Shown here one piece after another: positions 20,855-62,912 of a stretch of DNA of 64,000 nt. Both the position numbers and the translations under genes were made by a program. Numbering within the stretch: position 1 is the first letter of the stretch; the number at the start of each line of letters is the position of its first letter. Under the pieces are notes generated by a model. It did no database searches. It was not told the DNA's origin and saw nothing but the letters and a program-made list of their open reading frames with translations. The stretch comes from Corythoichthys intestinalis. Its lineage: Eukaryota. The stretch is from NCBI RefSeq assembly GCF_030265065.1, contig NC_080410.1, positions 29,890,661 to 29,954,660 of the forward strand, written 5' to 3'.

Positions 20855-21037
20855 GTAGTTTTTTATCTGGCAACGAGAATTGGCGTCCACGGCCAGCCAT
20901 CTTTGCTGGTATCTAGCTTTGACGTCCGGGTCTTTGGAGGTCAGCGAGTTCTTCACCTGCAAGCCGGCAGCCACTCGAGCCACCTGAGTGTTTCCCGGGT
21001 TGGCCAAAACCTTGGACAACTCCACCAGGAAGGTCGG
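20855..21037 (-). CDS. kpnb1: kpnb1 exon 3 ([61 protein letters not shown])
   Basis: cctttcag acceptor, TAC|gtaagt donor. 61 aa collinear with human KPNB1. Confidence 0.9.
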
Positions 21038-21259
21038 CTGAAAGGATAACATGTCAACAATTAGTAAAACGGCTAGCAGAATCGCTTCCAAAGTTCAATG
21101 TTTTCAACAGTAAGTATTCCAAAACTCAAATGTTTATCTTGCAAATATTTTTTCCCCCTGCAAGAGACAGAAGCATCTCTCAGAGACCTCAAGTAAGAAT
21201 ATTGATCGATGTTTAGCGTTTCCATGGGATGGATTAGATTGTTCCTTAACAATCTAAGG

Positions 21260-23329
21260 CAGGGGTCCCCAACCTTTTTTGCGCCACGGACCGGAGTGAT
21301 TTGGGTCTTTTTTTTCACGGACCAATGTTCTGTCAAATTTTGCACCCTTATAAAATTTTGCTCCCAACACGTTTATGTCGGTGAAAAAAGCCTTTTATAT
21401 TCAGTTGGACTCTCAATGTTATCCAACGGTGTAAAAAATTATATGCATATTAAACATACAAGTGCAACACGAAAATGGCGTAAACTAATGCTTAATGACA
21501 CGGCGAAGTCGCTAAGTGATAGAGTTGCGTGCAGCTAACATGGCAAACGTAAGTTTATATTCAGGGGTGCACATAAGTGGTCCGCATGCGCGCATGCGTA
21601 CTGGACGTAGACAAACGCGCTGGCCCTCAACGGCTTCCATACGCTTTTGCGTACCGATGGCTGACCACTGTATTTGCGGCGGACACGAGAAAAAAACTAC
21701 TCAAAATGTCGAAGAGGCAGGCCACACTGAGTAATTACTTCCGTGTTCCCCCACCCCCGTCAAAAGACAGACAGACGACAGAGACGTCACCGGAGCTACC
21801 GAAAAAAAGGACTTTTGCTGAAAAGTGGCTACAGGAGGTACCACGGCTAGAAGCAAATGATGCTCGCACGGAAATGCGATACAAATTGTGCCGTGAGAAT
21901 CCCAATGTCGCCGATAAGAGCAGCGCATTTTATGTACGGTCAAAGAATTTCAGCCATCCAAACTTTGAAAAGCACGAAAAAAACAGCATGTGGCAATTAA
22001 GCAAACTATCGATGTCAAACAGGACCCCACTCGCGGCGAGTCCACAGGGCGAGTGACTCGCCCTATGGACAAGTGGCGGAATAAAGGTAATGAACAGCGA
22101 CATGCACTGACAAACGTGTTTTTGCTTGCATTTTACAAAGCTAAACATGCATGTTCAATGAGGTCTTATGAGGAGGACATCCCACTTTTAAAAAGGCTTG
22201 GAGTTAATGTGGGAGCCGCATAATGCCCTTTATTTTGAATTGGTGCTTTTTATTTCTTTACATTTCACTTCAAAGTAATGGCAATTTTGTTGTGCCAGTT
22301 GATGTTAATCAAGCATTAATTGTTAATATAATTAATTAAAGTTAATTGGCTCTAAGTAAAGCTTGTCATAAATTTATCGCATCAGGCGGGTCGGCTCTCA
22401 AGCTCAATGAGGACCAAGTTACATCTCCAGGTCCTCCTCTGAGAACCTGGGCAAAAAAATTATGTGCACCCCTGTTTATATTCCTTTCTTGAAAGAAAGT
22501 GTACTTTGGAATCGCCGCAGTCGCGGTCATTTTTAACGTTACGCGCATGCCAAACTTGTCAGAACACCAACAATGTGTGGCAGAAAAATACAGCAAATAT
22601 AAAATAACATTTGTTTTGAGCCCCATCGTGTCAAGTGCAGGGAAAATACAACTCACCCGCTGAATTAGTGTGAGGCCTGAGCTTGTTTCGTTTGTTTCAA
22701 TACTCTCCTAGCGACATCAGGCTATTTCGAAATGACGTTAATTCAGAAACTCTGGACTGTTGTCTCAAATGTACGTTTAAGGTCGTCGTGATTTGCGATC
22801 TCTACAAGCTGATATTCTTGTTGCACGGACATGCTCGAATCACTCGGTTTATTAACATACGGGGTCACAAATCCATTCCTTCGCAGTTCGTGGGTCTTTA
22901 GTGATTGAGAAGTAGCATAGATCTTGTTTTCTTGAGGTCGTAGGCTCATCTTCTGGCTTGTGAGTTTCCCTTTTCCACGTAAAAAATCTGTCCAAAGATG
23001 TCTTTTTCTGTCATTCTAGTGTGGGGGCCAATTATTTTCGGGAACAAATGTGATGGGTGACAACCTACATCATACGTTATTATCGAGGCCAAGTGCACAT
23101 AGATATACAAACAAGATGTACTGCTAACAGTCCAAGCAATGCATTTCTATGACGACGTCCCTTTCTGTAGTTGTATATCTAGAGTAGACAGGGATATTGG
23201 CGTGTTAAGCGGCACAGGCCAAAGTCAATCGGCCAGAACACAGTCGTTAATATATTATTTCTGCGCCGCCAGGTACCAAATGCGCCACGGACCGGTACCG
23301 GTCCGCGGCCCGGTCGTTGGGGAACCCTG
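21260..23329. mobile_element. hAT-Charlie-like element (TIR CAGGGGTCCCCAACC.../...GGTTGGGGAACCCTG) in kpnb1 intron 2
   Basis: Inverted termini. Internal ORF 21577-22056 has an N-terminus like TTF-type zinc-finger hAT transposases (MSKRQATLSNYF...KRTFAEKWLQEVPRLE...). Confidence 0.6.
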
Positions 23330-24133
23330 CTACAAGGTCTGTGGACGCACAGGCGCAAGCCATCTCATGAGCCTCGTGACATGGTGATTACGTCACCCAC
23401 TCGTTTGCGGTACCCCTCTTTCAAAAGTGCGAAAGTGGAGCTTCATCCTTGTTTTTACTCTGTCAATAGACCAAGTAAAACCGGAGACAATGCCCTTAGA
23501 ATGTTATCGCCTTAGTTTATGTCAACTTATTTGTTATTTCTTGTCCTTTTCCCAATCGGAAAGCATGGAAGCGAACAACATATTCCATGATTCTATTCTG
23601 ACGTCAAACCGCAAATTAAAATTTTTGCACGCGAGGTCAAGGGCGTGTGTTGTGAGAAGGAAGAGAAGGCTCGCGTATCAGTGACCACGATTAGGAGTGA
23701 TTGTGAAGAGTTTATTTGGAGATCTGTAAACTGAACTTTGCTTTCTTTCAAAAACTTGATGAAGAGGATGACTCAGATGTGTCATCTTTGGACGAGTCTG
23801 TGAGTGATAATGTTTACATAAATATGTGTGTGTTCAAGATAAAGTGACGGGTGAAAAAACAAACCTCACAACAAGACGTCCTCCAAACACTTTTTAGCCG
23901 CGCTATAGGAACAATCTATGGAACCTTTTTTGGGGCCAATGTCATTATTTTGCGTGTTCGCACATGTAGGAAGTCGGGACCAGGATCTCGAGTTACGAGA
24001 ACCATTTCAGTTCCTTCTGAGGTAGGGACTTTCAGTGGGGCCATAGGAACTTGATTACGTAAGTGTTTGGTGATTTACTGAAATCAACAACTATGCCCCT
24101 TAATTCTGTCACGTCTCAATTAGCCGCCATATT

Positions 24134-24134
<1 letters not shown>

Positions 24135-24176
<42 letters not shown>
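24135..24176. repeat. poly(A) tract of ~42 nt preceded by ATTTATTA, possibly a retroposon tail
   Basis: Homopolymer run after an AATAAA-like motif. Confidence 0.5.
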
Positions 24177-24177
<1 letters not shown>

Positions 24178-25420
24178 ACTACCCTGTACTAAATCAGAGT
24201 CCTCCTCCAGTCTCATCATGAGATACTGGATTTGCTCGCAAATGGAAACCATTCCCTTCATTCATGCAAGAATTGCTGTTGAATCCTCGACGATCTTCAT
24301 TTCGTTTCTATCCGTTCATTTTAGTTTTCGTGGTTTTATTTTGCCAAAGGTGGGTGTGGCGAGTAAATAATGCGTCACTGTCGTAGACTACATCGTCACA
24401 GCAGTTTGTATCAGGCGCAGTACCCATGTGTGTAGGTGACTGCCTGGCAAAAGAGTTCATTTAACTACTGGAGAGGCCTAAAGTTATAGGAACTAAATAC
24501 TCAGGTTTTTACAGTCCATAAGCAGCTTTTGTGTTGGATGGCATATTTTTGTGTTATATTTGCACTGTTTTGAACTTTTTAGTAGTTGTTCTACTGTATA
24601 TAAATTGTTTTGACCATGGTATGTATAAAGGCCAAAAACGCAGATGACCATACCTGCTGTTTCTGTTGAATTATCAAACTATTCAGTCTCTTTTTCCCTC
24701 CTATTGAATGTTCATCCGAACAAGTTGAATATATAATATCAAGCTTCGAAACGGTTTGTTGAGCATGTTTGGCTGTCAATTAGGCTCGAGCGTTTACGTC
24801 ACAGCAATGAGGGATCTCGGGAGATTTCGTGAGATTTGACAACAACGCAGCCATATTGGAAGCAGGTCTGGTTCGTGGGACATTTAAACGGCAAATACAA
24901 TTCAACTACGAGTGCCACAAGATGGAAAAAAGTTAGGAAAACTTCGAACTAGCCAGTTCGATACAGAGACAAACTCGTTATTAAAGCGAGGGACAGATAT
25001 CTGATCAAACTTAAGGATGTGAACAACGTTGACCCTTACGAGCAAGCCGAAGGCAAATGGAGTAAATTACGCGAAATGGAAATTCTGCTGTATTTGGTGT
25101 AAGTTACTACACTCATCACCAATTCCGCAATTACAAATCGCTACAAAGCTATGAACAGTTTTGCTGCGGATGGGTACAGGACCTGCACATTATGACCGTA
25201 TCAAACGGCAACACCATCATCTTGCAAAAGTAGGCTATGTGTGTTTACCATTTTCATTGCCATGAACATCTGAATTTGTGCTGTGCTGAGCTGTGATTGT
25301 TAAGTGACAAATCAATGCTGTGTTTTAGAAAACAGATTTACCTTGCTCAATGTTTCCCAGTTGGCCTACTGCAAGCAAACTCACTTCAGAAATTTACGTA
25401 GACAAATGAAATTAACTTAC

Positions 25421-25664
25421 CGGAGTGGAAGTGCATAGAGCAAACTCTGTGTACAACTGTAGAATTAAACGTTATATCCTTTCTTTTGATCAAGGCAACC
25501 CATGCCATTCTTCGACGTTTGTTAAGTTCAGATATGACCTTCACCTCGCCTTTTCTCCATGTAGGGATCCGGAAGAAGCTCAATGGGGTTCCGTCGATCT
25601 GTACATTCTCCTTTCTATTCGATCGGTTGTTGTAATTCTTTACCGCACAATAATTCCCAAACAT
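25421..25664 (-). CDS. THAP zinc-finger exon nested in kpnb1 intron 2 (MFGNYCAVKNYNNRS...SFFRIP...RVCSMHFHS); alternative upstream ATG at 25697
   Basis: C2CH THAP signature with SFFRFP-like and VCSxHF motifs. Exon ends at canonical donor TCCG|gtaagt. GCCATTTTG and CAGGAAGT motifs lie just upstream. Confidence 0.5.
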
Positions 25665-26558
25665 TTTTAAAGAGCGACCTGTGTCGAAATGCCTCACTGT
25701 TTATGTTTCCCGGGGTTCTGATACCGAACTTCCTGCTTCCAAAATGGCGAGAGGGGCGGAAATCTCGCGCATGGGGAGGGGGGAGTGCTAGGTCATACAC
25801 ACGAGCCTAATAGGACATCAATGTTACAAATTCTGACAAATAAATTTTGGATTTTTTTGTAGTTATGGGCCGAAAGGTCGGGGCTGAGAATAGCAATGCA
25901 TTTTTAGTTTTGCATTGCTATTTTTCGGCCCCTGACCTTTCTGCACATCTCTAATTTTTTGGTCTTTGTGAGCCTAAAATGTTAATTAGTCAGAGAGATG
26001 AAAACAACAGTTTGAACATGAAGGTTATGTTGTCCTGATAAACAGGACCCAACAAGCCCATTGTGAATAATTCTTTGAAATATGAAGGTAACATTAAAGG
26101 GTTAACCAATTGATGTCACGATCCGGATCGAAGGTCGTTAAGTTTGTCGATACGTGTCAAAATGTCCGGTTATCGGCACCAACAGTTGGCCAGTATCAGT
26201 AAAGCACTTGAGCGTTGTTTCGAAAACCAACAATTTAAAGCAACAAAACCAATGCCAACTCTCATGAGTGTTAGGAAAAACCCCTGAAACGCATACAGTG
26301 TATTAGGGCCAGTGACGTTGCTCACCCACAATGCATCGCGTGGCACCACCGGTCTAAACTTTAATCGGTAACGAATATTAGTCTTTACCAGCGTCTTAAA
26401 TAACAGCACGACGAGTGCCCGAGGTGGCCCCGAGATACCTCCGGGGTCACATGCGAGCGAGCCGAGCCTGCCTTTAGGGTGCGCCGGGAGGGGCTGATGC
26501 TAACGCTAATGCTAGCGCCGGTCAGGCGGGCTCCACGCTCGCGCGTCATCTTACTCAC

Positions 26559-26617: not shown

Positions 26618-27199
26618 CTGCACATAATCAAACATGACAAGTGAAAAGTGGCTCGAAAAGTGTGAAAATTGAGCCACCAAAAACGGCAAGGCGCCAACGT
26701 GCGCGTTAGCTTGCTAGCACTGCAGCTCGCGCTCGGCGTCCACTCGGGCCCGCTTAACGCAGCAGACACCACAATAAAGTTTGCCAGTCCACTCGGAAGT
26801 GGTTTAATACAACCAAACTAGTTGGGTGAAGGGCCTCTCGTCTGTCCAGAGAGCGTAAAAGAATGTTGACGACGGCAAATAGGAGGAATGCTAGGGTGCT
26901 AGCCAAGCAGCTAAAGGCATGGGCAGGGTCGCGACACCACGACGACGTCGACAACGAAGCCCATAAACAAGCGCGTCTGAACCAAGGCGACTCACAACAT
27001 GACGACGAGTTGAGGCCGGATGGTAAACTGAGCGGGCCGACGCAGCCGCACCGCCCCGGTTAACTCGTTGCTAGCAGCCAAATAGCCGGCTACCTAGCCG
27101 GCTAACTAGCTAGTTAACAGCCCCAAACTTTCACCGGTCGACCGGCGCCGCCCCGTCCGGCCAACGGCGGCCCCGGCGCAGCCCGTTTGAGCCACTCGC

Positions 27200-27239
27200 C
27201 TGGAGAGATAGTCTTCTCGAGGATAGTGATGAGCTCCAT
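27200..27239 (-). CDS. kpnb1: kpnb1 exon 1 (MELITILEKTISP + first base of Asp codon); start codon 27237-27239
   Basis: ATG in GC-rich context. The peptide equals the importin beta-1 N-terminus. The donor reads CCAG|GCGAGT, a GC-AG type. Confidence 0.75.
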
Positions 27240-39696: not shown

Positions 39697-39829
39697 CTGT
39701 GACACCACGGCAGGCAAAGGCCACACCTTAAGTTAGTTAATTGTGGAAATTCTCGACCCACGCGGTATTTTGATTTCGCGGGCCAAGCGAAGGCTGGCAA
39801 AAAGCGGCACCAGTGGCGGCGTGACTGAC

Positions 39830-40911
39830 CATCGGCTCCAGGTGCGACACACGCGCATGCACAGGCACAACTCTCGCTGGCTGAGGAAAGTGAAGACGCG
39901 CAGCCACACATCGCGCGGCATGACGTGAGCGCGGCCTGAGTCCAGCGGAAGGCAGCTGGGTTCGGGGCAGGCAGGTGGCGGCCTCACCAGGTGGCGCTCC
40001 ATCTGGACGGGACGGGGTGGCGACGGCACGGCTGGAGGGCTACGCTTCATTACGTGCGAGCGCCCTGCCGCGCCGAGGCGAGACGACTGCGAGCACGGTG
40101 ACGCCGCGGTCACCGATACTAGCGGGCCGCCGCCTCGCCCGCCGTTGGGGGTGGGGATAGAGGTGGAGCAGTTCCTTGGACGACTTTTGTTGCCTTTGGC
40201 CACGCCCGCTCCCACCCCGCCGTGTCTGTGATTGGTCGGCGGACCACTGGCGTTCTCCTTTTCACCCCGCGTGCGGCCGTTGCGAGCCTCCTGCCCGTTG
40301 TTGCGCTGCGAGGACGGAGCCATCTGATTGGATGAGAGAGGCGACGGCGGCGGGAGGGAGGAGATTTTCCCCAGTCTGTCCGAAGGGGGCGGCTCGTCCT
40401 GGTCGGCGTCCGATGCGCCAGCTTTCCTCCCACGCTGCACCAGGGATCCTCCAGCGTCACTGTCCCCTCGCCGACGGGCCTTATCCCGTTCCTCCTCCCG
40501 CTCCTCGTCCTCACCTTCCGACTCTTCACTTGCGCTGAAGCCCAACTCCGCCAGGCGGCGGTCCCGCTCGCTGCGGAACCTCTCCGGGCGGCTTCCATTG
40601 CCGTGGGCGATGGGAGGGGGTGGCGGCGGCGAAGAGGGCGAGGACGCCCCTCCCCTGCGAAGGGAGTCATCCGAGTCGGACTCAGAGTCTGACTCCGAGC
40701 TGGATGACGAGGACGAAGACGAGTCAGGCCTGCGTTCCAGGAGACACATCCTCTTGAAGCGTTCCAGTTTTTCCCGATGACGTGAACGCTGGTCGGCGCC
40801 AGAAGCTCCGCCACCATCGGCTGGCGGCGTTGACGAGGACGCGGAGCCCTGAGGAGCCCCTCCCGCCGAGGGAATGGGGCCATTGGACTCGGCTCCTTCT
40901 TGTTTGGGCTT
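39830..40911 (-). CDS. kdm2b: kdm2b-like large exon: Ser/acidic/Pro-rich linker plus F-box (…[30 protein letters not shown])
   Basis: Acceptor ttttttag. 1082-nt open frame. F-box matches KDM2[32 protein letters not shown]. Donor TG|gtcagtcac. Confidence 0.85.
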
Positions 40912-43239: not shown

Positions 43240-44869
43240 CAGTGCCTTGCAAAAGTATTCGGCCCCCTTGAACCTTGCAACCTTTCGCCACATTTCAGGC
43301 TTCAAACATAAAGATATCAAATTTTAATTTTTTGTCAAGAATCAACAACAAGTGGGACACAATCGTGAAGTGGAACAACATTTATTGGATAATTTAAACT
43401 TTTTTAACAAATAAAAAACTGAAAAGTGGGGCGTGCAATATTATTCGGCCCCCTTGCGTTAATACTTTGTAGCGCCACCTTTTGCTCCAATTACAGCTGC
43501 AAGTCGCTTAGGGTATGTTTCTATCAGTTTTGCACATCGAGAGACTGACATTCTGGCCCATTCTTCCTTGCAAAACAGCTCGAGCTCAGTGAGGTTGGAT
43601 GGAGAGTGTTTGTGAACAGCAGTCTTCAGCTCTTTCCACAGATTCTCGATTGGATTCAGGTCTGGACTTTGACTTGGCCATTCTAACACCTGGATACGTT
43701 TATTTTTCAACCATTCCATTGTAGATTTGGCTTTATGTTTTGGATCATTGTCCTGTTGGAAGATAAATCTCCGTCCCAGTCTCAGGTCTTGTGCAGATAC
43801 CAACAGGTTTTCTTCCAGAATGTTCCTGTATTTGGCTGCATCCATCTTCCCGTCAATTTTAACCATCTTCCCTGTCCCTGCTGAAGAAAAGCAGGCCCAA
43901 ACCATGATGCTGCCACCACCATGTTTGACAGTGGGGATGGTGTGTTCAGGGTGATGAGCTGTGTTGCTTTTACGCCAAACATATCGTTTTGCATTGTGGC
44001 CAAAAAGTTCAATTTTGGTTTCATCTGACCAGAGCACCTTCTTCCACATGTTTGGTGTGTCTCCCAGGTGGCTTGTGGCAAACTTTAAACGAGACTTTTT
44101 ATGGATATCTTTGAGAAATGGCTTTCTTCTTGCCACTCTTCCATAAAGGCCAGATTTGTGCAGTGTATGACTGATTGTTGTCCTATGGACAGACTCTCCC
44201 ACCTCAGCTGTAGATCTCTGCAGTTCATCCAGAGTGATCATGGGCCTCTTGGCTGCATCTCTGATCAGTTTTCTCCTTGTTTGAGAAGAAAGTTTGGAAG
44301 GACGGCCGGGTCTTGGTAGATTTGCAGTGGTCTGATGCTCCTTCCATTTCAATATGATGGCTTGCACAGTTCTCCTTGAGATGTTTAAAGCTTGGGAAAA
44401 CTTTTTCTATCCAAATCCGGCTTTAAACTTCTCCACAACAGTATCTCGGACCTGCCTGGTGTGTTCCTTGGTTTTCATAATGCTCTCTGCACTTTAAACA
44501 GAACCCTGAGACTATCACAGAGCAGGTGCATTTATACGGAGACTTGATTACACACAGATGAATTCTTTTTATCATCATCGGTCATTTAGGACAACATTGG
44601 ATCATTCAGAGATCCTCACTGAACTTCTGGAGTGAGTTTGCTGCACTGAAAGTAAAGGGGCCGAATAATATTGCACGCCCCACTTTTCAGTTTTTTATTT
44701 GTTAAAAAAGTTTAAATTATCCAATAAATGTTGTTCCACTTCACGATTGTGTCCCACTTGTTGTTGATTCTTGACAAAAAAATTAAATTTCATATCTTTA
44801 TGTTTGAAGCCTGAAATGTGGCGAAAGGTTGCAAGATTCAAGGGGGCCGAATACTTTTGCAAGGCACTG
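43240..44869 (-). mobile_element. Tc1-like DNA transposon (1630 bp, TA TSD, ~200-bp TIRs CAGTGCCTTGCAAAAGTATTCGGCCCCC...)
   Basis: Inverted ends at 43240-43450 and 44650-44869. Internal 302-aa transposase ORF at 43459-44367 carries D,D,E motifs (DNDPKH, SPDLNPIEN). Confidence 0.9.
43459..44367 (-). pseudogene. Tc1 transposase ORF, nearly intact. The N-terminal HTH segment (MKTKEHTRQVRDTVVEKFKAGFG*KK...) lies upstream but is separated by a single in-frame TAG.
   Basis: The six-frame ORF begins MQAIILKW.... Reverse-strand translation upstream recovers the conserved Tc1 N-terminus with one stop. Confidence 0.65.
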
Positions 44870-46510
44870 TACGCATAAAGGTAAATAAATAAAAAATAAT
44901 AAAAATAAATGAAATATTCTAAATAAAATAAAATTGCCATGATAATTAGCCCCTTTATTAAATAAATAAAAAAATAACAAAAAATAAATGAAATATTCTA
45001 AATAGAACTAAATTGGCATGCTAATTAGCCCCTTTATATACCTCGTTAACAAGCTTACGTTTCAGTATGTTTTACCAATGCTAGACACACTACAGATGCT
45101 GGAGTAAATGCTCGTAGCTAGTAGGAAACGTTCATGACAGCGTTACTAATTTTGTATAAATGCGAAATCATATTGGGAGATATTGCCTTCTCTGTTAGCC
45201 ACCCCGTGCAAACATGTTTTACATGTTGGTTGGCCCACCTAAGCCGCGGCCTTAAAGAGAATTATAATACTAAGGGGCTGTGTGATATCAATGGAACAGT
45301 TATGTGGCAAGATAATAAAGTTAAAAAAAAAATAAATCACACTCATGACCAATTATCGAAAATAAATAGAAAATTACGAACATTTACGAATGTAGCCCGG
45401 AAACAGCCAAATGGGGCTATGACGTCACAGCCAGGAAGCAAAAGGTCGAGGCAGATGCCATTGTTGTTTATCGACGAGAGAGTTGCGTTCGTTTTTTATC
45501 AAAAAAATCGCTAAAATGGTTCCAACCTGTCGTGCTATGTGGTGTACAAATAGCAATTTGTCGCAATGTAGAACCCATGAGTTCCCGAATGCGAGAAAAA
45601 GAGCTGGACTAAGCAGACAAAAGGTAAAGTTCGTCCGTGCTAAGAGGGCCAATTTTGCAGACCCAGCCTCCGGCACGGTTTTGTGTGGTGTAAATTTTAC
45701 ACCTGAAAGCTTTTCGAACTATGGACAAATTAAATCAGGTTTTGCTAAGAAATTGCTGCTGAAAGCAGATGCGGTGCCCACCATACACGCGCAGCCACCT
45801 AAATGTTCTGAGATATCAAGAAAGAGGACGATGACTGGCACTGATGATACCACCCCAGGCAAAGCAAATGAGTTGAGCAGCCAAGCTCGAAATGGCCAGA
45901 GTGAGTACTCTTTTATAATAAAAAACATATCATGCATTGGCTATAGGACTGGACACATGTATAAATTATCGCTCGTAAAATATATACAACAAATCCTTTA
46001 ATCCCATTCATATTTGTGTCTGTTGGCAGAGCGAAAACCTATGATAGCACAATAAATGATAATTATTCTATATATTACTTTATTTTGCGGTCACGGTGTA
46101 TCAGCTTCACAAAAAGAAATGCAAAACAAACCATTCGGTGTTTCCCACACGATCTGTTGCCGGTGTTTCATCAGTGTGATTGCTCCCCTCAATGATCCTT
46201 TCATTAGGCTGCATTGGCTTTCGTTTGGGCTCAAATTGATAACCCAAAACACCAAAGAAAGGTTCATAACTTTCCTTGTCACTATTAGAAGAACGTTCAT
46301 TACGTCGGATTCGTCGCTGCAAATAGAAACAAAATTGTCCGCCATCATCGCTGCCATTCAGTACTTTGTCAGGACCCAAGCACTGAGCGGGTGTTTCCTA
46401 GTTGTGACGTCACGCACACAATATGCTAGATTTCGGGGATCTCGGGCACCGGTCGTTTTAGCTTGACAATCGATCCAAATTTCTACCATTTTCTTGGTGT
46501 GTGTAATTAC

Positions 46511-48305
46511 TAGCAGTGCAACGGTTTGCGGTTCAAAACCGAACCGTACGGTTCGCCCTGTACGGTTCAATACGCCTTTATGAACCGCGCCTTTTTGGTT
46601 TTACAATTACAGTAATCTATTCTGAACGCTTGTGAAATGAATTGGTCAAACTCTGTGTGCCTGTGTGTGACGTGAAGCGCAGCTGTGGAGAAATTCCCGC
46701 CCCGCGAGTAAATGTCCAATCGCTGTCAAGCACCTGTGTAATAGGAGCCGAGTAACGACCTCTCTCGCTTACGAGCGAGGTGAAAGTGAAACAAGAAAGA
46801 AAACAAAAAAAGTTATGGCGAGCGGAGGAGTCGACAGACCGATTTCTGAGGAGGCACCGGCTTCTTTCAAATCTGCGGTGTGGCAACATTTCAGTTTCCC
46901 CGTGGACTACAATGCAGACGGAGAGAAAACATTGAAAGAAAAAAAACAATTTGCAAGCATTGCTTAGCGCTTGTTCCCTATGCTAACGGCAACACTTCTA
47001 ACATGACTTGGGCACCTCAGCCGGCATCACCCACAGACATCGCTTTCTCAGAGCAGGACAACCCCGAAGATGACACCAGTGAAAACACACGGGTCTATAG
47101 AAGAGGCGTTCGAAAAGCCTTACAATATCAGGTCAGAAAAACACAAGAAAATAACCCACGCAGTGGGAATGTGCATTGCAAAAGACATGCAACCATATTC
47201 CGTGGTTGAAGATGCGGGCTTAGTTAATTTGATTGTAACGCTTGACCCGCGTTATATTGTTCCCTCGCGGATATATTTCGCCAACAACATAATCCCCGAC
47301 ATTTATGAAATGTCACGCAAAGCCATCGAAGGTGATTTCGCGAAAGCACATAGTTTCGCCCTGACCGCTGATAGTTGGACGTCCCGTGCTAGAGAGTGCT
47401 ACTACCTAACTGTGACGATCCACTATAATTCATACCTGTCAAGTTGTAAGGTCTCGGCGTTATTTGTACAAGTGAGCACTGATTTTTAAATGTGTACGCC
47501 GCAGGTTACGTTCAAAATCTGCACGTTTTTCGTGCATTGGCGTTTTTGTTGGGTTTTTTTTCATCCGTTTGGATTTGGTCACGCGTTTGGTTTGTAGCAA
47601 ACGCGATGCTAGGCGGCTCCAATATTTCCTGACTGTGGCCGACATCATACAATCTACGCCTAGATATCTCATGCATATAGAACTACATGCGAAATGACAC
47701 ACGGTAGCGTTAGTAAACAGCCGCCATTTTAGAGCAGTAAACTTCTCAGAAAGGCTCTGTTGTAGTGAACCTTCCGAGCGAACCTAAGCAACTTTTTATC
47801 TAAAATACTCCTAAATCGACAAAATCTTGACTTGAGTCTATCTTTAAAGGATGAAACAGTTTTGAAATTTTCACATTCGAAAGTAGACAGAAGGGAACTA
47901 AGGCAAAAACGGGAGCAATTTTATCAACTTTAACCGTTGATTCACAACATTAAATGACCTCCAAACATAGCAAAGGTTACTATGTTTTTGGGTTTGTTTG
48001 TTTTTTTTTAATGAAAAAAAAAAGAAAGGTATCACCAGTTACTTTGCCAAGTAACTTTTTTACTACTGTGTATTTCAGTAGTCAGTCACTACACTTGCCA
48101 AAGAGCTAAGAGGCATTTTAACAGTCGAAAATGTTTACATTTTAAGTGTTTATTTCATTTTTTTTAAAAGCAAAATAAAGGCAGTTTAAAAAAAAAAAAA
48201 GAAGAAAAGCAAAACGCAAAACGCAAACCGAACCCGAACCGAAACCGTGATCCCAAAACCGAGGTTCAAACCGAACCGTGGGCTAACTGAACCGTTGCAC
48301 CCCTA
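46511..48305. mobile_element. hAT element (TIR TAGCAGTGCAACGG...CCGTTGCACCCCTA) with 8-bp TSD GTAATTAC, nested in THAP-element copy 1
   Basis: TSD at 46503-46510 and 48306-48313. Copy 2 retains the unoccupied site gtgtGTAATTACacg at 52521-52532. Confidence 0.8.
46800..47490 (+). pseudogene. Decayed BED-zinc-finger / hAT transposase N-terminal region (SAVWQHF...CKHC...; ...DAGLVNLIVTLDPRYIVPSR...TADSWTSRA)
   Basis: BED-finger and hAT motifs split across two frames (ORFs 46880-47209 and 47070-47489) with a stop between them. Confidence 0.6.
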
Positions 48306-55250: not shown

Positions 55251-56027
55251 ATGGGCAAGACTGCTGACTTGAGTGCTGTCCAGAAGGTCATCATTGACAC
55301 CCTCAAGCAAGAGGCTAAGACACAGAAAGAAATTTCTGAGCGAATGGTCTGTTCCCAGAGTGCTGTATCAAGGCACCTCAACGGGAAGTCTGTGGGAAGG
55401 AAAAAGTGTGGCAGGAAACGCTGCAGAACCAGAAGAGGTGACCTCACCCTGAGAAAGATTGTGGAGAAGTGCCGATCCCAGACCTTGGGGGACCTGCAGA
55501 AACAGTGGACTGAGTCTGGAGTAGAAACATCCAGAGCCGCCGTGCACAGGTGTGTGCTGGAGCCACTTTTGAACCTGAAACAGCGGCAGAAGCGCCTGAC
55601 CTGGGCTACAGAGAAGCAGCACTGGACTGTTGCTCAGTCGTCCAAAATACTTTTTTCAGATGAAAGCAAATTTTGCGTGTCATTCGGAAATCAAGGTGCC
55701 AGAATTTGGAAGAAGACTGGTGAGAAGGAAATGCCGAAATGCCTGAAGTCCAGTGTCAAGTACTCAAATTCAGTGATGGTCTGGGGTGCCATATCAGCTG
55801 CTGGTGTTGGTCTACTGTGTTTTTTCAAGGGCAGGGTCAATGCAGCTAGCTATCAGATTTTGGAACACTTCATGCTTCCATCTGCTGAAAAGCTTTATGG
55901 AGATGAAGATTTCATTTTTCAGCACGGCCTGGCTCACAGTGTCAAAACCACTGGTAAATGGTTTACTGACCATGGCATTACTGTGCTCAAGTGTCCCGCC
56001 AACTCTCCTGACCTGAACCCCATAGAG
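55251..56027 (+). pseudogene. Tc1-like transposase remnant (MGKTADLSAVQKVIIDTLKQ...ANSPDLNPIEH), disrupted by MITE insertion at 56028
   Basis: Transposase homology. The reading frame runs into the inserted MITE. It resumes as NLGTKY* after the TSD. Confidence 0.6.
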
Positions 56028-56255
56028 CACAGGTGTCAAACCGATTCCAGAAAGGGCCGAGTGGGTGCTGGATTTTGTTCCAACCGATACAACGCAGAGA
56101 GTTTAATGAACTTCCTGCTGAAACAAGCAGCACCTGACAAAGTTTAACTGATTACACATGTAAAAGATCTAATTGGTGAAAAGGTGTCCTCTTCATTGGT
56201 TGGAAAGCAAACCTGCACCCACTTGGCCCTTTCTGGAATCGGTTTGACACCTGTG
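56028..56255. mobile_element. Palindromic MITE (CACAGGTGTCAAACCGATTCCAGAAAGGGCC...), 8-bp TSD CCATAGAG, inserted in the transposase ORF
   Basis: TSD at 56020-56027 and 56256-56263. A divergent family member is at ~6035-6262. Confidence 0.7.
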
Positions 56256-60800: not shown

Positions 60801-62912
60801 TTGAGAGCTCAATAAATTGAAGAAAAGAACGCCTTATGTTTGGAGTATTTGTTTTTGTGTTCGCTGGCTGGCTAGCCGATAGCATCACTTTCACACACAG
60901 AAACAAACGGTAGGGGGTGAGCGCTGCCGCGCCATGCCACTTCTGGCTGCATTTTTGAGACATGAAAAATGGCGAATACCGTACTACGGTCTGACGGAAA
61001 ATTTTAGTGGTTTTGAAACCGCGACGTTTTCACACCACGGTAAACCGTGAAACCGGTAACCGGCACATGCCTAGTCCTGAGTGTGTTGTTAAGTCCCGTG
61101 TGCGTCTATTAGAGGTGAGTACACGAACCCTCTTGTACTGTTTAGCCTTTATTGTTGTTGTTTTTGAGATGTTAACAGTTAGTGCTAAGCTAAATAGGGA
61201 ATTCGCTAACGTGTATTTCCATGTCTATTTGTGCGTTATTAGTGTACAAAAGCATACTAAATAATACATATGCAGAACATGTAAAACCAGGATCAAGTAC
61301 AGCGGTAACACTACAAACATGCGAAATAATACAGAAATCTGTGAAAACAAAGTATATTGGTTAAAAGAAGTCTTATTTCTAAAGGCACTTTGGTTTTTTT
61401 CCAGAAAATGTGGAATTCATTCCACCACTGTAAATTTTATTGTATTGTTGGGAGAAATAAGTACTCCCTTTGAAACAGCTGCGCCTTCTTGTGAAAAAGA
61501 GCAGCTTAAGTTCAGCTTTTTGTTGTATAGGCATGTTTCCATTGTTCCTGCTGGATCATTAGTATGAAGTAGCCACAAAGTAAGAGAAAAGAGGTAGGGG
61601 CGTAAAGAAATCCTGATCATTGTTAATACCGTGAAGATAATTCAATAATCATTCAAGTTCAATAATCGAATCGTAGTACCCTGAATCGTAATTTAGTCCA
61701 ATCGTGGGGTGCCTTAGATGGCACACCCCTAATATGCACGCATGAAAATCACCGATGACCCATGCAATCAATAGTGTTGGCTATATTTTCAGGATGAAGT
61801 TATTAAAACTTACCATTGCATGTCAATAACTGTAGTATGAACAGCAACATTTGTAATCCAGCTGCTCTGTAGGCAACATGCTGCAGAGTGGATAATTTTT
61901 CCACCGGTGTGTTTATATCGTGGCCAGCAGCAAGTATCCAAAGTTTGTATTGTTCCTCGTTCTTCATAGGGAATTTGTGGAAACTCTCATTTGCCCATTT
62001 CTTCTGTCTGTTTCCACAGCCTCTAAATGCATGTTTCACTATGTTGCCGTTCTTCATTCAAGACTCCTTAGACTGATGCTGCATTCGAGGAAGGTGGGGA
62101 GTCCGAGTTTCCAACCTCCGACCAGAAAAAAATAACATTGGAACGCCACTCGAACTGGGAGGCACTAGTCGCCAAGTCAGGAAAAAAAAACAAAAACAAG
62201 TTGCTTCAATCAGACGTCACTCAATAAAATGCGGTGCCCGTCGAAAAGCAGACCGTCAATAGAAAAACTAAAGAAGGCAGTATACAATGTGGTCTATTTA
62301 GAGTTTTCCTCCAGTATTTGATCACTTATGAGAAGGCAGGTTTGCTGGAGGTCAACATGTCTTTTGATGTCCAAAATAAAAAACGATTGGAACACTTTGA
62401 GGTCACAACTGGTACCATCCGAGTGGGATAAGTCCAACTACCCATCTTCCTCGAATGCAGCATGAGCACAAGTTGCCGTAGCACTCCTCTCTATGGGGGT
62501 CTCATTACGCATCTAAAAAATAGTCTCGCAGAAATAAATGAATTACGGCAATTTGGTGTGACATTGTTTTTGGCTGTATGTGTATTTTGAACAAACGATG
62601 TGCATTTTGAATTTTTTTGACTATATTCGATCTGTTAATATCATTTTATTGGGATGCTAGGAAGGGACCATTCACTCACGCCGGGTACCCCCCCCGACTT
62701 TGCGACTAGGACCTCCAAATTCGAGTGGCATTCCAATGATATTTTTTCTAGTTGGAGGTTGGAAAACTCCCGACTTCCCACCTTCCTTAAATGCAGCATT
62801 CGAGTCCAAATGAAATAACGTCCTGTGTTGAAAACCCCCGAAACAACCGATGATGGCATGCGAGTTTCAGACAACGAAATCTAAAGGGTTTATTTGGGAT
62901 TGTATGTTTCAG

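What the first reader, a model, noticed from the sequence alone, without database searches (positions are those of the whole stretch)
25386..25800. Stand-alone THAP-domain first exon with its own promoter-like motifs nested antisense-neutral inside kpnb1 intron 2
A clean THAP finger (MFGNYCAVKNYNNRS…SFFRIP…VCSMHFHS) ends at a canonical GT donor. Directly upstream on the same strand are GCCATTTTG (YY1-like) and CAGGAAGT (ETS-like) motifs. No downstream exons were recognised. It may be a nested gene, such as a THAP paralogue or a domesticated P-element/hAT, or an exonised TE fragment. It is unrelated in sequence to the THAP ORF of the TTAA element.
Basis: partly seen in the sequence, partly recalled or inferred. 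Interest (0 to 1): 0.5.

Follow-up and report, generated by a model that had tools for sequence, protein, structure and literature searches.

The report
Orphan first exon of THAP transposase
The THAP-like exon in the second intron of the fish importin-beta gene (kpnb1) is real. It is a leftover piece (promoter plus first coding exon, with one zinc-binding residue lost) of a THAP–DDE transposase-like gene family common in teleost fish, not a working nested gene.

Summary
On the minus strand, an ATG at 25664 opens 81 codons plus 1 nt that end at a G|GTAAGT donor (exon 25664-25421). The exon lies in kpnb1 intron 2, on the same strand as kpnb1. It passes Pfam THAP (36.5 bits against a cut-off of 23.9) and scores E=1e-26 against a profile of 108 teleost relatives (40-51% identity).

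Full-length relatives are THAP + HTH_Tnp_4 + DDE_Tnp_4 proteins, the architecture published for ISL2EU (PHIS superfamily) transposases. The four full-length relatives whose exons I mapped have two coding exons, and the intron sits exactly where the window's donor sits. The donor is therefore inherited and is not evidence of function here. The YY1-like CGCCATTTTGG also recurs 61-90 nt upstream of the ATG in three of eight relatives' loci.

Three points count against a working gene:
- Exon 1 covers only profile positions 1-58 of 87.
- Exon 2 (rest of THAP, HTH, DDE) is absent from all 64 kb.
- The second zinc ligand, Cys in 108 of 108 relatives, is Tyr here.

Splicing to kpnb1 exon 3 would shift the frame. 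A weak inverted repeat (24779-24866 / 25732-25811) hints at a ~1 kb internally deleted element. Verdict: an ordinary transposon-type relic, of low interest.

The parts
25421..25664 (-). Orphan first coding exon (81 codons + 1 nt, phase-1 end). It encodes the N-terminal two thirds of a THAP domain.
   Evidence: Searches give the coordinates. Pfam THAP covers profile positions 1-58 of 87. The family profile scores 82 bits, E=1e-26. Identity to 166 relatives is 40-51%.
25415..25420 (-). GTAAGT splice donor at the family's conserved intron position (after HFHS-G, phase 1)
   Evidence: In L001 and L003-L005, exon 1 ends at the same codon, and GT or GC follows the same G. Many database relatives are read-throughs of the form '...HFHSGKL'.
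25632..25634 (-). Codon 11, TAC (Tyr), replacing the invariant second zinc-ligand Cys of the C2CH signature
   Evidence: C6, C11, C75 and H78 are each 100% conserved in 108 family N-termini. The window sequence is the only one with Y11.
25728..25750 (-). Promoter-like block TCGCCATTTTGGAAGCAGGAAGT, with the YY1-like CGCCATTTT at 25749-41 and the ETS-like CAGGAAGT at 25735-28
   Evidence: CGCCATTTTGG lies 84 nt upstream of the ATG here. It lies at -61, -90 and -77 in L003, L004 and L009, with variants in L006 and L001. The ETS-like part is only partly conserved (AGGA).
25732..25811 (-). Right arm of a weak inverted repeat (ATTAGGCTCG ... GAGATTT ... GCCATTTTGGAAGCAGG)
   Evidence: Repeats I5 and I10; alignment. 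Collinear exact seeds arose in 45 of 3000 shuffles. The gapped score was not significant over an 11 kb search space.
24779..24866 (+). Left arm of the inverted repeat (ATTAGGCTCG ... GAGATTT ... GCCATATTGGAAGCAGG). It carries a second, inward-facing copy of the promoter-like block.
   Evidence: The 17-mer occurs only at these two places in the window with 0 mismatches.
24781..25809 (.). Putative ~1.03 kb internally deleted element, TAGGCTCG...CGAGCCTA, flanked by AT on both sides (tentative)
   Evidence: Flanks were read: TCA-AT|TAGGCTCG on the left and CGAGCCTA|AT-AGG on the right. This is compatible with the AT duplication reported for ISL2EU (PMC4482050) but is not diagnostic.
21038..26558 (-). 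Host context: kpnb1 intron 2 (phase 0), on the same strand as the THAP exon
   Evidence: tblastn of human KPNB1, recalled from memory, against the window, plus sequence reading. Joining the THAP exon to exon 3 shifts the frame and stops after 41 codons.

Best explanation
The segment is the 5' remnant (promoter-proximal region plus first coding exon) of a member of a large teleost gene family. Intact members of that family encode THAP + HTH_Tnp_4 + DDE_Tnp_4 proteins, which is the architecture of ISL2EU/PHIS-type DNA-transposon transposases.

In intact members, exon 1 encodes the first ~58 positions of the THAP zinc module. Exon 2 encodes the rest of the THAP fold (KPAYEM..PDWAPSLHLGH), a coiled-coil-like linker, the HTH and the DDE nuclease. 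A conserved YY1-type site 60-90 nt upstream of the ATG presumably drives transcription.

The window copy keeps only the promoter block, exon 1 and the inherited splice donor. Exon 2 is gone, most likely through internal deletion of the element, and one of the four zinc ligands has mutated (Cys11 to Tyr). It therefore cannot make a folded THAP domain or a transposase. If it is transcribed, the RNA would either end in the intron or splice to kpnb1 exon 3 out of frame.

Shown: family membership, intron position, conserved upstream motif, missing exon 2, lost ligand. Inferred: transposon origin of this particular copy, deletion as the mechanism, and lack of function.
For: - Pfam THAP match. A HMMER search of 1.84 billion representative proteins gave 166 relatives. 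The listed matches mostly span nearly the whole exon, and nearly all stop at its last or second-to-last residue.
- The ten relatives looked up are teleost proteins, and named hits include many distinct cichlid entries, which indicates a multi-copy family.
- P0009, P0015, P0026 and P0045 are THAP + HTH_Tnp_4 + DDE_Tnp_4. The literature assigns DDE + HTH + THAP transposases to ISL2EU, which is present in teleosts (PMC4482050, PMC9179366).
- The four full-length relatives mapped by tblastn (L001, L003-L005) have exon 1 covering aa 1-82, with the intron at the same codon and phase as the window's donor.
- Three of eight relatives' loci (L006, L007, L009) are themselves truncated or internally deleted copies that keep exon 1.
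- CGCCATTTTGG is conserved upstream of the ATG.
- C11 is Cys in 108 of 108 relatives and Tyr here.
- No trace of exon 2 exists anywhere in the window by tblastn, motif regex or two profiles.
- There is an inverted repeat with AT flanks.
- The chimera with kpnb1 exon 3 is frameshifted.
Against: - Apart from C11Y, the exon is well preserved. It keeps 14 of the 16 columns that are at least 80% conserved, and its profile score of 94 bits is within the family range (rank 78 of 109). It has an intact ATG and a strong donor. It is therefore either young or still constrained.
- The inverted repeat is weak (38 of 300 shuffles reach the gapped score).
- The relatives' loci examined show no clear TIRs and no YqaJ partner ORF, so the family's mobility is inferred from architecture and literature, not demonstrated here.
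- Copy number in the source genome is unknown. The source species does not appear to be represented in the protein database (best fbxl19 match 63%).
- No expression data were available.
Confidence: 0.8

Rival explanations
1. A functional nested gene. The THAP exon would be the first exon of a host gene (a domesticated THAP paralogue) whose further exons lie downstream and encode a novel, unrecognisable C-terminus.
For: The ORF, the ATG context and a strong donor are intact, and a family-type promoter block is present. Several relatives carry non-transposase C-termini, for example P0007, P0037, P0049 and the zinc-finger fusion P0008. L001 and L007 both lie next to Ig-like genes, which hints that some family members are fixed host genes.
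Against: Where the listed relatives (first 70 rows of the alignment) continue past exon 1 as coding sequence rather than intron read-through, they do so with the KP..PDW.PSL segment that completes the THAP fold. That segment is absent from the whole window: the regex gave no hit and the best profile hit was E=0.56. The invariant zinc ligand C11 is lost. No protein in 5.8 billion clusters shares even three 5-residue words with the exon.
Confidence: 0.1
2. A transposon-derived alternative promoter and first exon of kpnb1. Transcripts would start at the YY1-like block and splice from 25421 to kpnb1 exon 3.
For: It is on the same strand as kpnb1, inside intron 2, with a GTAAGT donor and a promoter-like block.
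Against: The junction is out of frame. It gives 81 aa plus a 41-aa unrelated tail and a premature stop in exon 3, so such RNA would be a nonsense-mediated-decay substrate and not a new importin isoform. No expression evidence is available.
Confidence: 0.06
3. A truncated THAP peptide acting as a repressor of its transposon family, in the manner of the P-element KP repressor (a DNA-binding domain without the catalytic part).
For: Internally deleted copies that keep exon 1 recur in the family. From established P-element biology, N-terminal THAP-only products can repress transposition.
Against: The exon holds only about two thirds of the THAP fold and lacks a zinc ligand, so sequence-specific DNA binding is implausible. 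Read-through adds only 11 residues (KLISFVYVNF, after the split Gly codon) before a stop.
Confidence: 0.03
4. A chance ORF with fortuitous THAP-like residues.
For: None beyond its short length.
Against: It scores E=1e-26 against the family profile and is the only hit in six frames of 64 kb. It passes the Pfam gathering cut-off. Its intron position is identical to that of relatives.
Confidence: 0.01

Closest known systems
ISL2EU transposases (PHIS superfamily: PIF/Harbinger, ISL2EU, Spy)
   Same: Relatives of the exon have the DDE (DDE_Tnp_4) + HTH (HTH_Tnp_4) + THAP architecture that the literature gives for the ISL2EU transposase, and ISL2EU occurs in teleosts (PMC4482050, PMC9179366). The AT dinucleotides flanking the inverted repeat fit the reported AT duplication.
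   Different: The window copy has only the first exon. No YqaJ exonuclease ORF was seen here or near eight relatives. The inverted-repeat arms start TAGG rather than the usual GG. The 3' flank is A, not T. No clear TIRs were found around the relatives' genes.
P-element transposase / THAP9 and internally deleted KP-type elements
   Same: An N-terminal THAP DNA-binding module sits on a cut-and-paste transposase, and internal deletion derivatives keep the 5' end.
   Different: The catalytic part in relatives is DDE_Tnp_4, not the P-element RNase-H-like/GTP-binding transposase. No Pfam P-element domains were found in the relatives.
Cellular THAP proteins (best solved-structure matches THAP11 2lau and THAP2 2d8r)
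   Same: The ...RRxxW...VCSxHF... part of the C2CH module is shared.
   Different: Sequence similarity is only marginal (E=0.4 and 1.1). Those proteins have all four zinc ligands and the complete domain.
HARBI1 (domesticated Harbinger nuclease)
   Same: The relatives' catalytic domain belongs to the same Pfam family (DDE_Tnp_4), and some relatives look immobile (no TIRs).
   Different: HARBI1 has no THAP domain. Nothing of the nuclease is present in the window.

Membership tests
THAP domain (Pfam PF05485, C2CH zinc module) | Profile score above the curated cut-off | tested here: met
   36.5 bits against 23.9, E=8e-9
THAP domain (Pfam PF05485, C2CH zinc module) | Four zinc ligands, C-X2-4-C-X35-53-C-X2-H | tested here: not met
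   C6, Y11 (not C), C75, H78. C11 is Cys in 108 of 108 relatives.
THAP domain (Pfam PF05485, C2CH zinc module) | Complete domain, including the C-terminal segment (AVPTIF-type; in this family PDWAPSL) | tested here: not met
   Only profile positions 1-58 of 87 are matched. Relatives match 1-86 across the exon junction. No PDW.PS motif occurs in any frame of the window.
Teleost THAP + HTH_Tnp_4 + DDE_Tnp_4 family | Homology of the N-terminal exon | tested here: met
   166 relatives, 40-51% identity over the exon. Profile E=1e-26.
Teleost THAP + HTH_Tnp_4 + DDE_Tnp_4 family | Intron after HFHS-G, phase 1 | tested here: met
   Same position in L001, L003, L004 and L005
Teleost THAP + HTH_Tnp_4 + DDE_Tnp_4 family | Exon 2 with HTH_Tnp_4 and DDE_Tnp_4 | tested here: not met
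   A profile of 17 members gave a best i-E of 0.92 over the whole window. tblastn found nothing.
Teleost THAP + HTH_Tnp_4 + DDE_Tnp_4 family | Upstream CGCCATTTTGG block 60-90 nt before the ATG | tested here: met
   Window -84; L003 -61; L004 -90; L009 -77; variants in L006 and L001
ISL2EU DNA transposon | Terminal inverted repeats (6-259 bp, usually starting GG) | tested here: inconclusive
   Arms at 24779-24866 / 25732-25811 share a 10-mer and a 16/17-mer in collinear order (45 of 3000 shuffles). The gapped score was not significant. The arms begin TAGG.
ISL2EU DNA transposon | AT target-site duplication in an A|AT|T target | tested here: inconclusive
   AT is present on both sides, with A on the 5' side but A rather than T on the 3' side. 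A 2-bp match has little weight.
ISL2EU DNA transposon | Second ORF with a YqaJ exonuclease domain | tested here: not met
   None in the window's element. None among the called genes near eight relatives and none among the ORFs of L003.
ISL2EU DNA transposon | Multiple copies in the source genome | not testable with these tools
   Only one copy exists in the 64 kb window. No fish genome collection is available, and the source species does not appear to be represented in the protein database.
   In the ten full-length relatives scanned, the only transposase-type Pfam domains are HTH_Tnp_4 and DDE_Tnp_4. None has a P-element or hAT domain.
Functional nested gene | Transcription and in-frame splicing to downstream exons | not testable with these tools
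   No expression data. No candidate downstream exon was found.

The most novel reading that the evidence does not exclude
The relic is still active as a sense-oriented intronic promoter with a strong donor inside kpnb1. It would give either a short THAP-derived peptide that modulates its transposon family (KP-repressor style) or chimeric, frameshifted kpnb1 transcripts that lower importin-beta output in tissues where the YY1-type promoter fires.
Probability: 0.06. Interest if true: 0.45.

Novelty: new member of a known kind. Interest (0 to 1): 0.14.

Why it matters
Mainly for annotation. An intact-looking 81-codon THAP ORF with a promoter motif and a canonical donor could be called as a gene or as an alternative kpnb1 first exon. 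The evidence says it is a degenerate fragment of a transposase-like family.

Two minor general points follow. This teleost THAP–DDE family has a fixed two-exon structure and a conserved YY1-type upstream block, both useful for recognising further fragments. Copies that retain only exon 1, or exon 1 plus fragments of exon 2, recur in the family.

Tried and rejected
- A word-indexed protein search with the exon found nothing. The HMMER search was needed.
- Downstream exons were sought by three-frame reading, tblastn with 150 relatives, a PDW.PS regex and a 45-aa profile, and a 410-position exon-2 profile. None was found. The best hit, 'HPSLYLEHT' at 23865-23785 (-), had E=0.56 and is treated as noise.
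- Very permissive tblastn suggested a second, decayed THAP exon on the + strand at 25072-25266, facing the first. The family profile did not support it, so it was rejected.
- A long terminal inverted repeat was tested. blastn found none. A gapped local alignment looked significant when the two windows were chosen post hoc but not over an honest 11 kb search space. Only the two collinear exact blocks remain suggestive.
- ORFs between the arms have no Pfam match.
- A scan of metagenome contigs for close copies gave only one distant partial match, L002.
- Relatives' loci were searched for TIRs or a YqaJ ORF. None was clear.
- An attempt to identify the source species from the fbxl19-like exon gave a best match of only 63%.
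- Solved structures gave only marginal THAP11 and THAP2 hits.
- The bacterial promoter/terminator scan is irrelevant here.

Full report
**1. What is in the sequence**

On the minus strand, an ATG at 25664 opens the reading frame MFGNYCAVKNYNNRSNRKENVQIDGTPLSFFRIPTWRKGEVKVISELNKRRRMAWVALIKRKDITFNSTVVHRVCSMHFHS. One further G follows, and then GTAAGT at 25420-25415. The exon is 25664-25421: 244 nt, or 81 codons plus one base, so the intron is phase 1.

I mapped kpnb1 with tblastn, using human KPNB1 recalled from memory, and by reading the junctions. The gene is on the minus strand.
- Its ATG is at 27239.
- Exon 2 is 26617-26559.
- Exon 3 starts at 21037.

**2. The THAP similarity is real**

Pfam THAP (PF05485) matches residues 6-79 at 36.5 bits, against a cut-off of 23.9. 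A profile built from 108 relatives scores the exon at 82 bits (E=1e-26), and nothing else in six frames of the window comes close. The other THAP ORF of the window (45483-46001) has no alignable similarity to it.

**3. The family**

A word-indexed search of 5.8 billion protein clusters found nothing sharing three 5-residue words with the exon. There is therefore no close copy among predicted proteins anywhere in that collection.

A full HMMER search of 1.84 billion representatives found 166 relatives at 40-51% identity. The listed matches mostly span nearly the whole exon, and nearly all stop at its last or second-to-last residue. Source names place the family in teleosts: Megalops, Brienomyrus, Acnodon, Leuciscus, Knipowitschia, Festucalex, Corythoichthys, Epinephelus, and many distinct cichlid entries.

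Full-length members P0009, P0015, P0026 and P0045 are THAP + HTH_Tnp_4 + DDE_Tnp_4. The literature describes the ISL2EU group of the PHIS (PIF/Harbinger–ISL2EU–Spy) superfamily as having a DDE + HTH + THAP transposase, AT target duplications and TIRs of 6-259 bp, and reports it in teleosts (PMC4482050, PMC9179366). Other relatives carry the same N-terminus fused to other tails or to C2H2 zinc fingers.

**4. Gene structure of relatives**

- In the four full-length relatives' genomic loci mapped by tblastn (L001, L003, L004, L005), exon 1 encodes aa 1-82 and ends right after HFHS-G, with GT (GC in one) following.
- In L001 and L003, the single exon 2 encodes all the rest, about 440 aa.
- Pfam's THAP match in relatives runs to residue ~98, across the junction. 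Exon 1 alone is therefore about two thirds of the domain.
- The window's 'canonical donor' is the family's inherited intron position. It is not independent evidence that this copy is spliced.
- Three of eight relatives' loci (L006, L007, L009) are themselves truncated or internally deleted copies that keep exon 1 plus only fragments of exon 2.

**5. The promoter-like motifs**

CGCCATTTTGG, a textbook YY1 site (CGCCATNTT, from general knowledge), lies 84 nt upstream of the ATG in the window. It lies 61, 90 and 77 nt upstream in L003, L004 and L009. Variants occur in L006 (CCGCCATGATGG) and L001. The flanking context (CCCC.TCTC-GCCAT..TGG.AGGA) is also similar. The YY1-like motif is thus a conserved family feature. 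The ETS-like octamer is only partly conserved.

**6. Why this copy is a relic**

(a) The four zinc ligands C6, C11, C75 and H78 are each 100% conserved in 108 family N-termini. The window has Tyr at position 11 (TAC, 25634-32) and is the only sequence without that ligand. Established THAP biochemistry holds that C2CH zinc coordination is required for folding and DNA binding.

(b) Exon 2 is absent. There is no PDW.PS motif in any frame. The best hit of a 45-aa profile is E=0.56. A 410-position profile of HTH + DDE has a best i-E of 0.92. tblastn with 150 relatives finds nothing.

(c) Splicing from 25421 to kpnb1 exon 3 (the intron is phase 0) shifts the frame. The product would be 81 aa plus 41 unrelated residues, then a stop inside exon 3.

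Against a very old relic, the exon is otherwise well kept. It retains 14 of the 16 columns that are at least 80% conserved, and its profile score of 94 bits compares with a family median of 113 (rank 78 of 109).

**7. Transposon termini**

The repeat finder reported two collinear inverted matches:
- ATTAGGCTCG..., at 24779-24793 and 25797-25811;
- GCCATWTTGGAAGCAGG, at 24850-24866 and 25732-25748, matching 16 of 17.

The 17-mer occurs nowhere else in the window without mismatch. A collinear pair of 9-mer or longer seeds arose in 45 of 3000 dinucleotide shuffles. A gapped alignment over an 11 kb search space was not significant, with 38 of 300 shuffles reaching the score.

The flanks read TCA-AT|TAGGCTCG ... 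CGAGCCTA|AT-AGG. This is compatible with an AT duplication but not diagnostic. I rate a TIR-bounded, ~1.03 kb internally deleted element (24781-25809) as plausible, at roughly one in three.

No clear TIRs or YqaJ ORFs were seen around the relatives' genes. The family's mobility is therefore inferred from architecture, diversity, copy number in cichlids and the literature.

**8. Limits**

- No fish genome or transcriptome could be searched.
- The source species does not appear to be represented in the protein database. The best match to the neighbouring fbxl19-like exon is 63%.
- Copy number and expression therefore remain untested.
- A metagenome scan gave only one distant partial hit.

**9. 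Verdict**

The exon is the first exon of a THAP-bearing gene type, and its YY1-like motif is a conserved family feature. The interpretation as a stand-alone THAP gene, or as a P-element or hAT derivative, is not supported. The best explanation is an orphan, partly degenerate 5' fragment of an ISL2EU-type THAP–DDE transposase-like gene lodged in kpnb1 intron 2 (confidence about 0.8). This is ordinary genome debris of low interest. A small residual possibility is that it acts as a sense-oriented intronic promoter and donor.

Noticed in passing
window 21270-23327: In the same kpnb1 intron there is a non-autonomous hAT-like element with CAGGGKTCCCCAAC-type ends. It contains a decayed hAT C-terminal coding fragment (minus strand, about 22850-22700). 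Nested inside it is an element bounded by TATATTCAGGGGTGCACATAA inverted repeats (21556-21576 / 22460-22480), which carries the + strand ORF 21577-22056.
   Followed up: partly
window 25865-25948: An 84-nt imperfect palindrome (77% self-complementary) lies just outside the right arm of the inverted repeat. It may be a small MITE or hairpin.
   Followed up: no
window 61893-62042 (-): This is a third THAP-like fragment in the window (...RGCGNRQKKWANESFHKFPMKNEEQYKLWILAAGHDINTPVEKL). It is 44% identical to the N-terminus of P0079 (E=8e-11) and belongs to a different THAP subfamily. The first Cys position appears to be lost.
   Followed up: partly
window 45483-46001 (+) and 47070-47489 (+): A complete-looking THAP ORF (with AVPTIH) is followed by a hAT/ZBED-like ORF.
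   Followed up: partly
window 27198-27199 (-): kpnb1 intron 1 appears to use a GC donor (CCAG|GCGAGT), if the reading frame M-E-L-I-T-I-L-E-K-T-I-S-P-D-R-N is to be kept.
   Followed up: no
window 39733-40749 (-): This is a large fbxl19-like F-box coding exon. The best database match is only 63% identical, so the source species or its close relatives appear to be missing from the protein collection.
   Followed up: partly
window 43459-44367 (-) and 55251-56147 (+): Two long Tc1/mariner-type transposase ORFs (302 and 298 aa) show that the window is rich in DNA-transposon copies.
   Followed up: no
L001 1-1818 and L007 1-1847: In both Festucalex and Epinephelus the THAP family gene sits next to an Ig-domain gene (VSIG10L2-like). 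This may be conserved synteny, so at least one lineage of this family may be a fixed, domesticated host gene and not a mobile copy.
   Followed up: no
window 23785-23865 (-): A weak resemblance (FFHPSLYLEHTHI against the family's HPDWAPSLHLGHT; profile E=0.56) lies 1.5 kb downstream of the THAP exon on the same strand. It is not significant. If it were real, it would place a decayed start of exon 2 outside the putative inverted-repeat boundary.
   Followed up: partly
L005 7261-7632: The relative in L005 carries four tandem partial repeats of the 3' end of exon 1 (profile positions 56-81) just after the exon. This suggests local tandem duplication in that copy.
   Followed up: no
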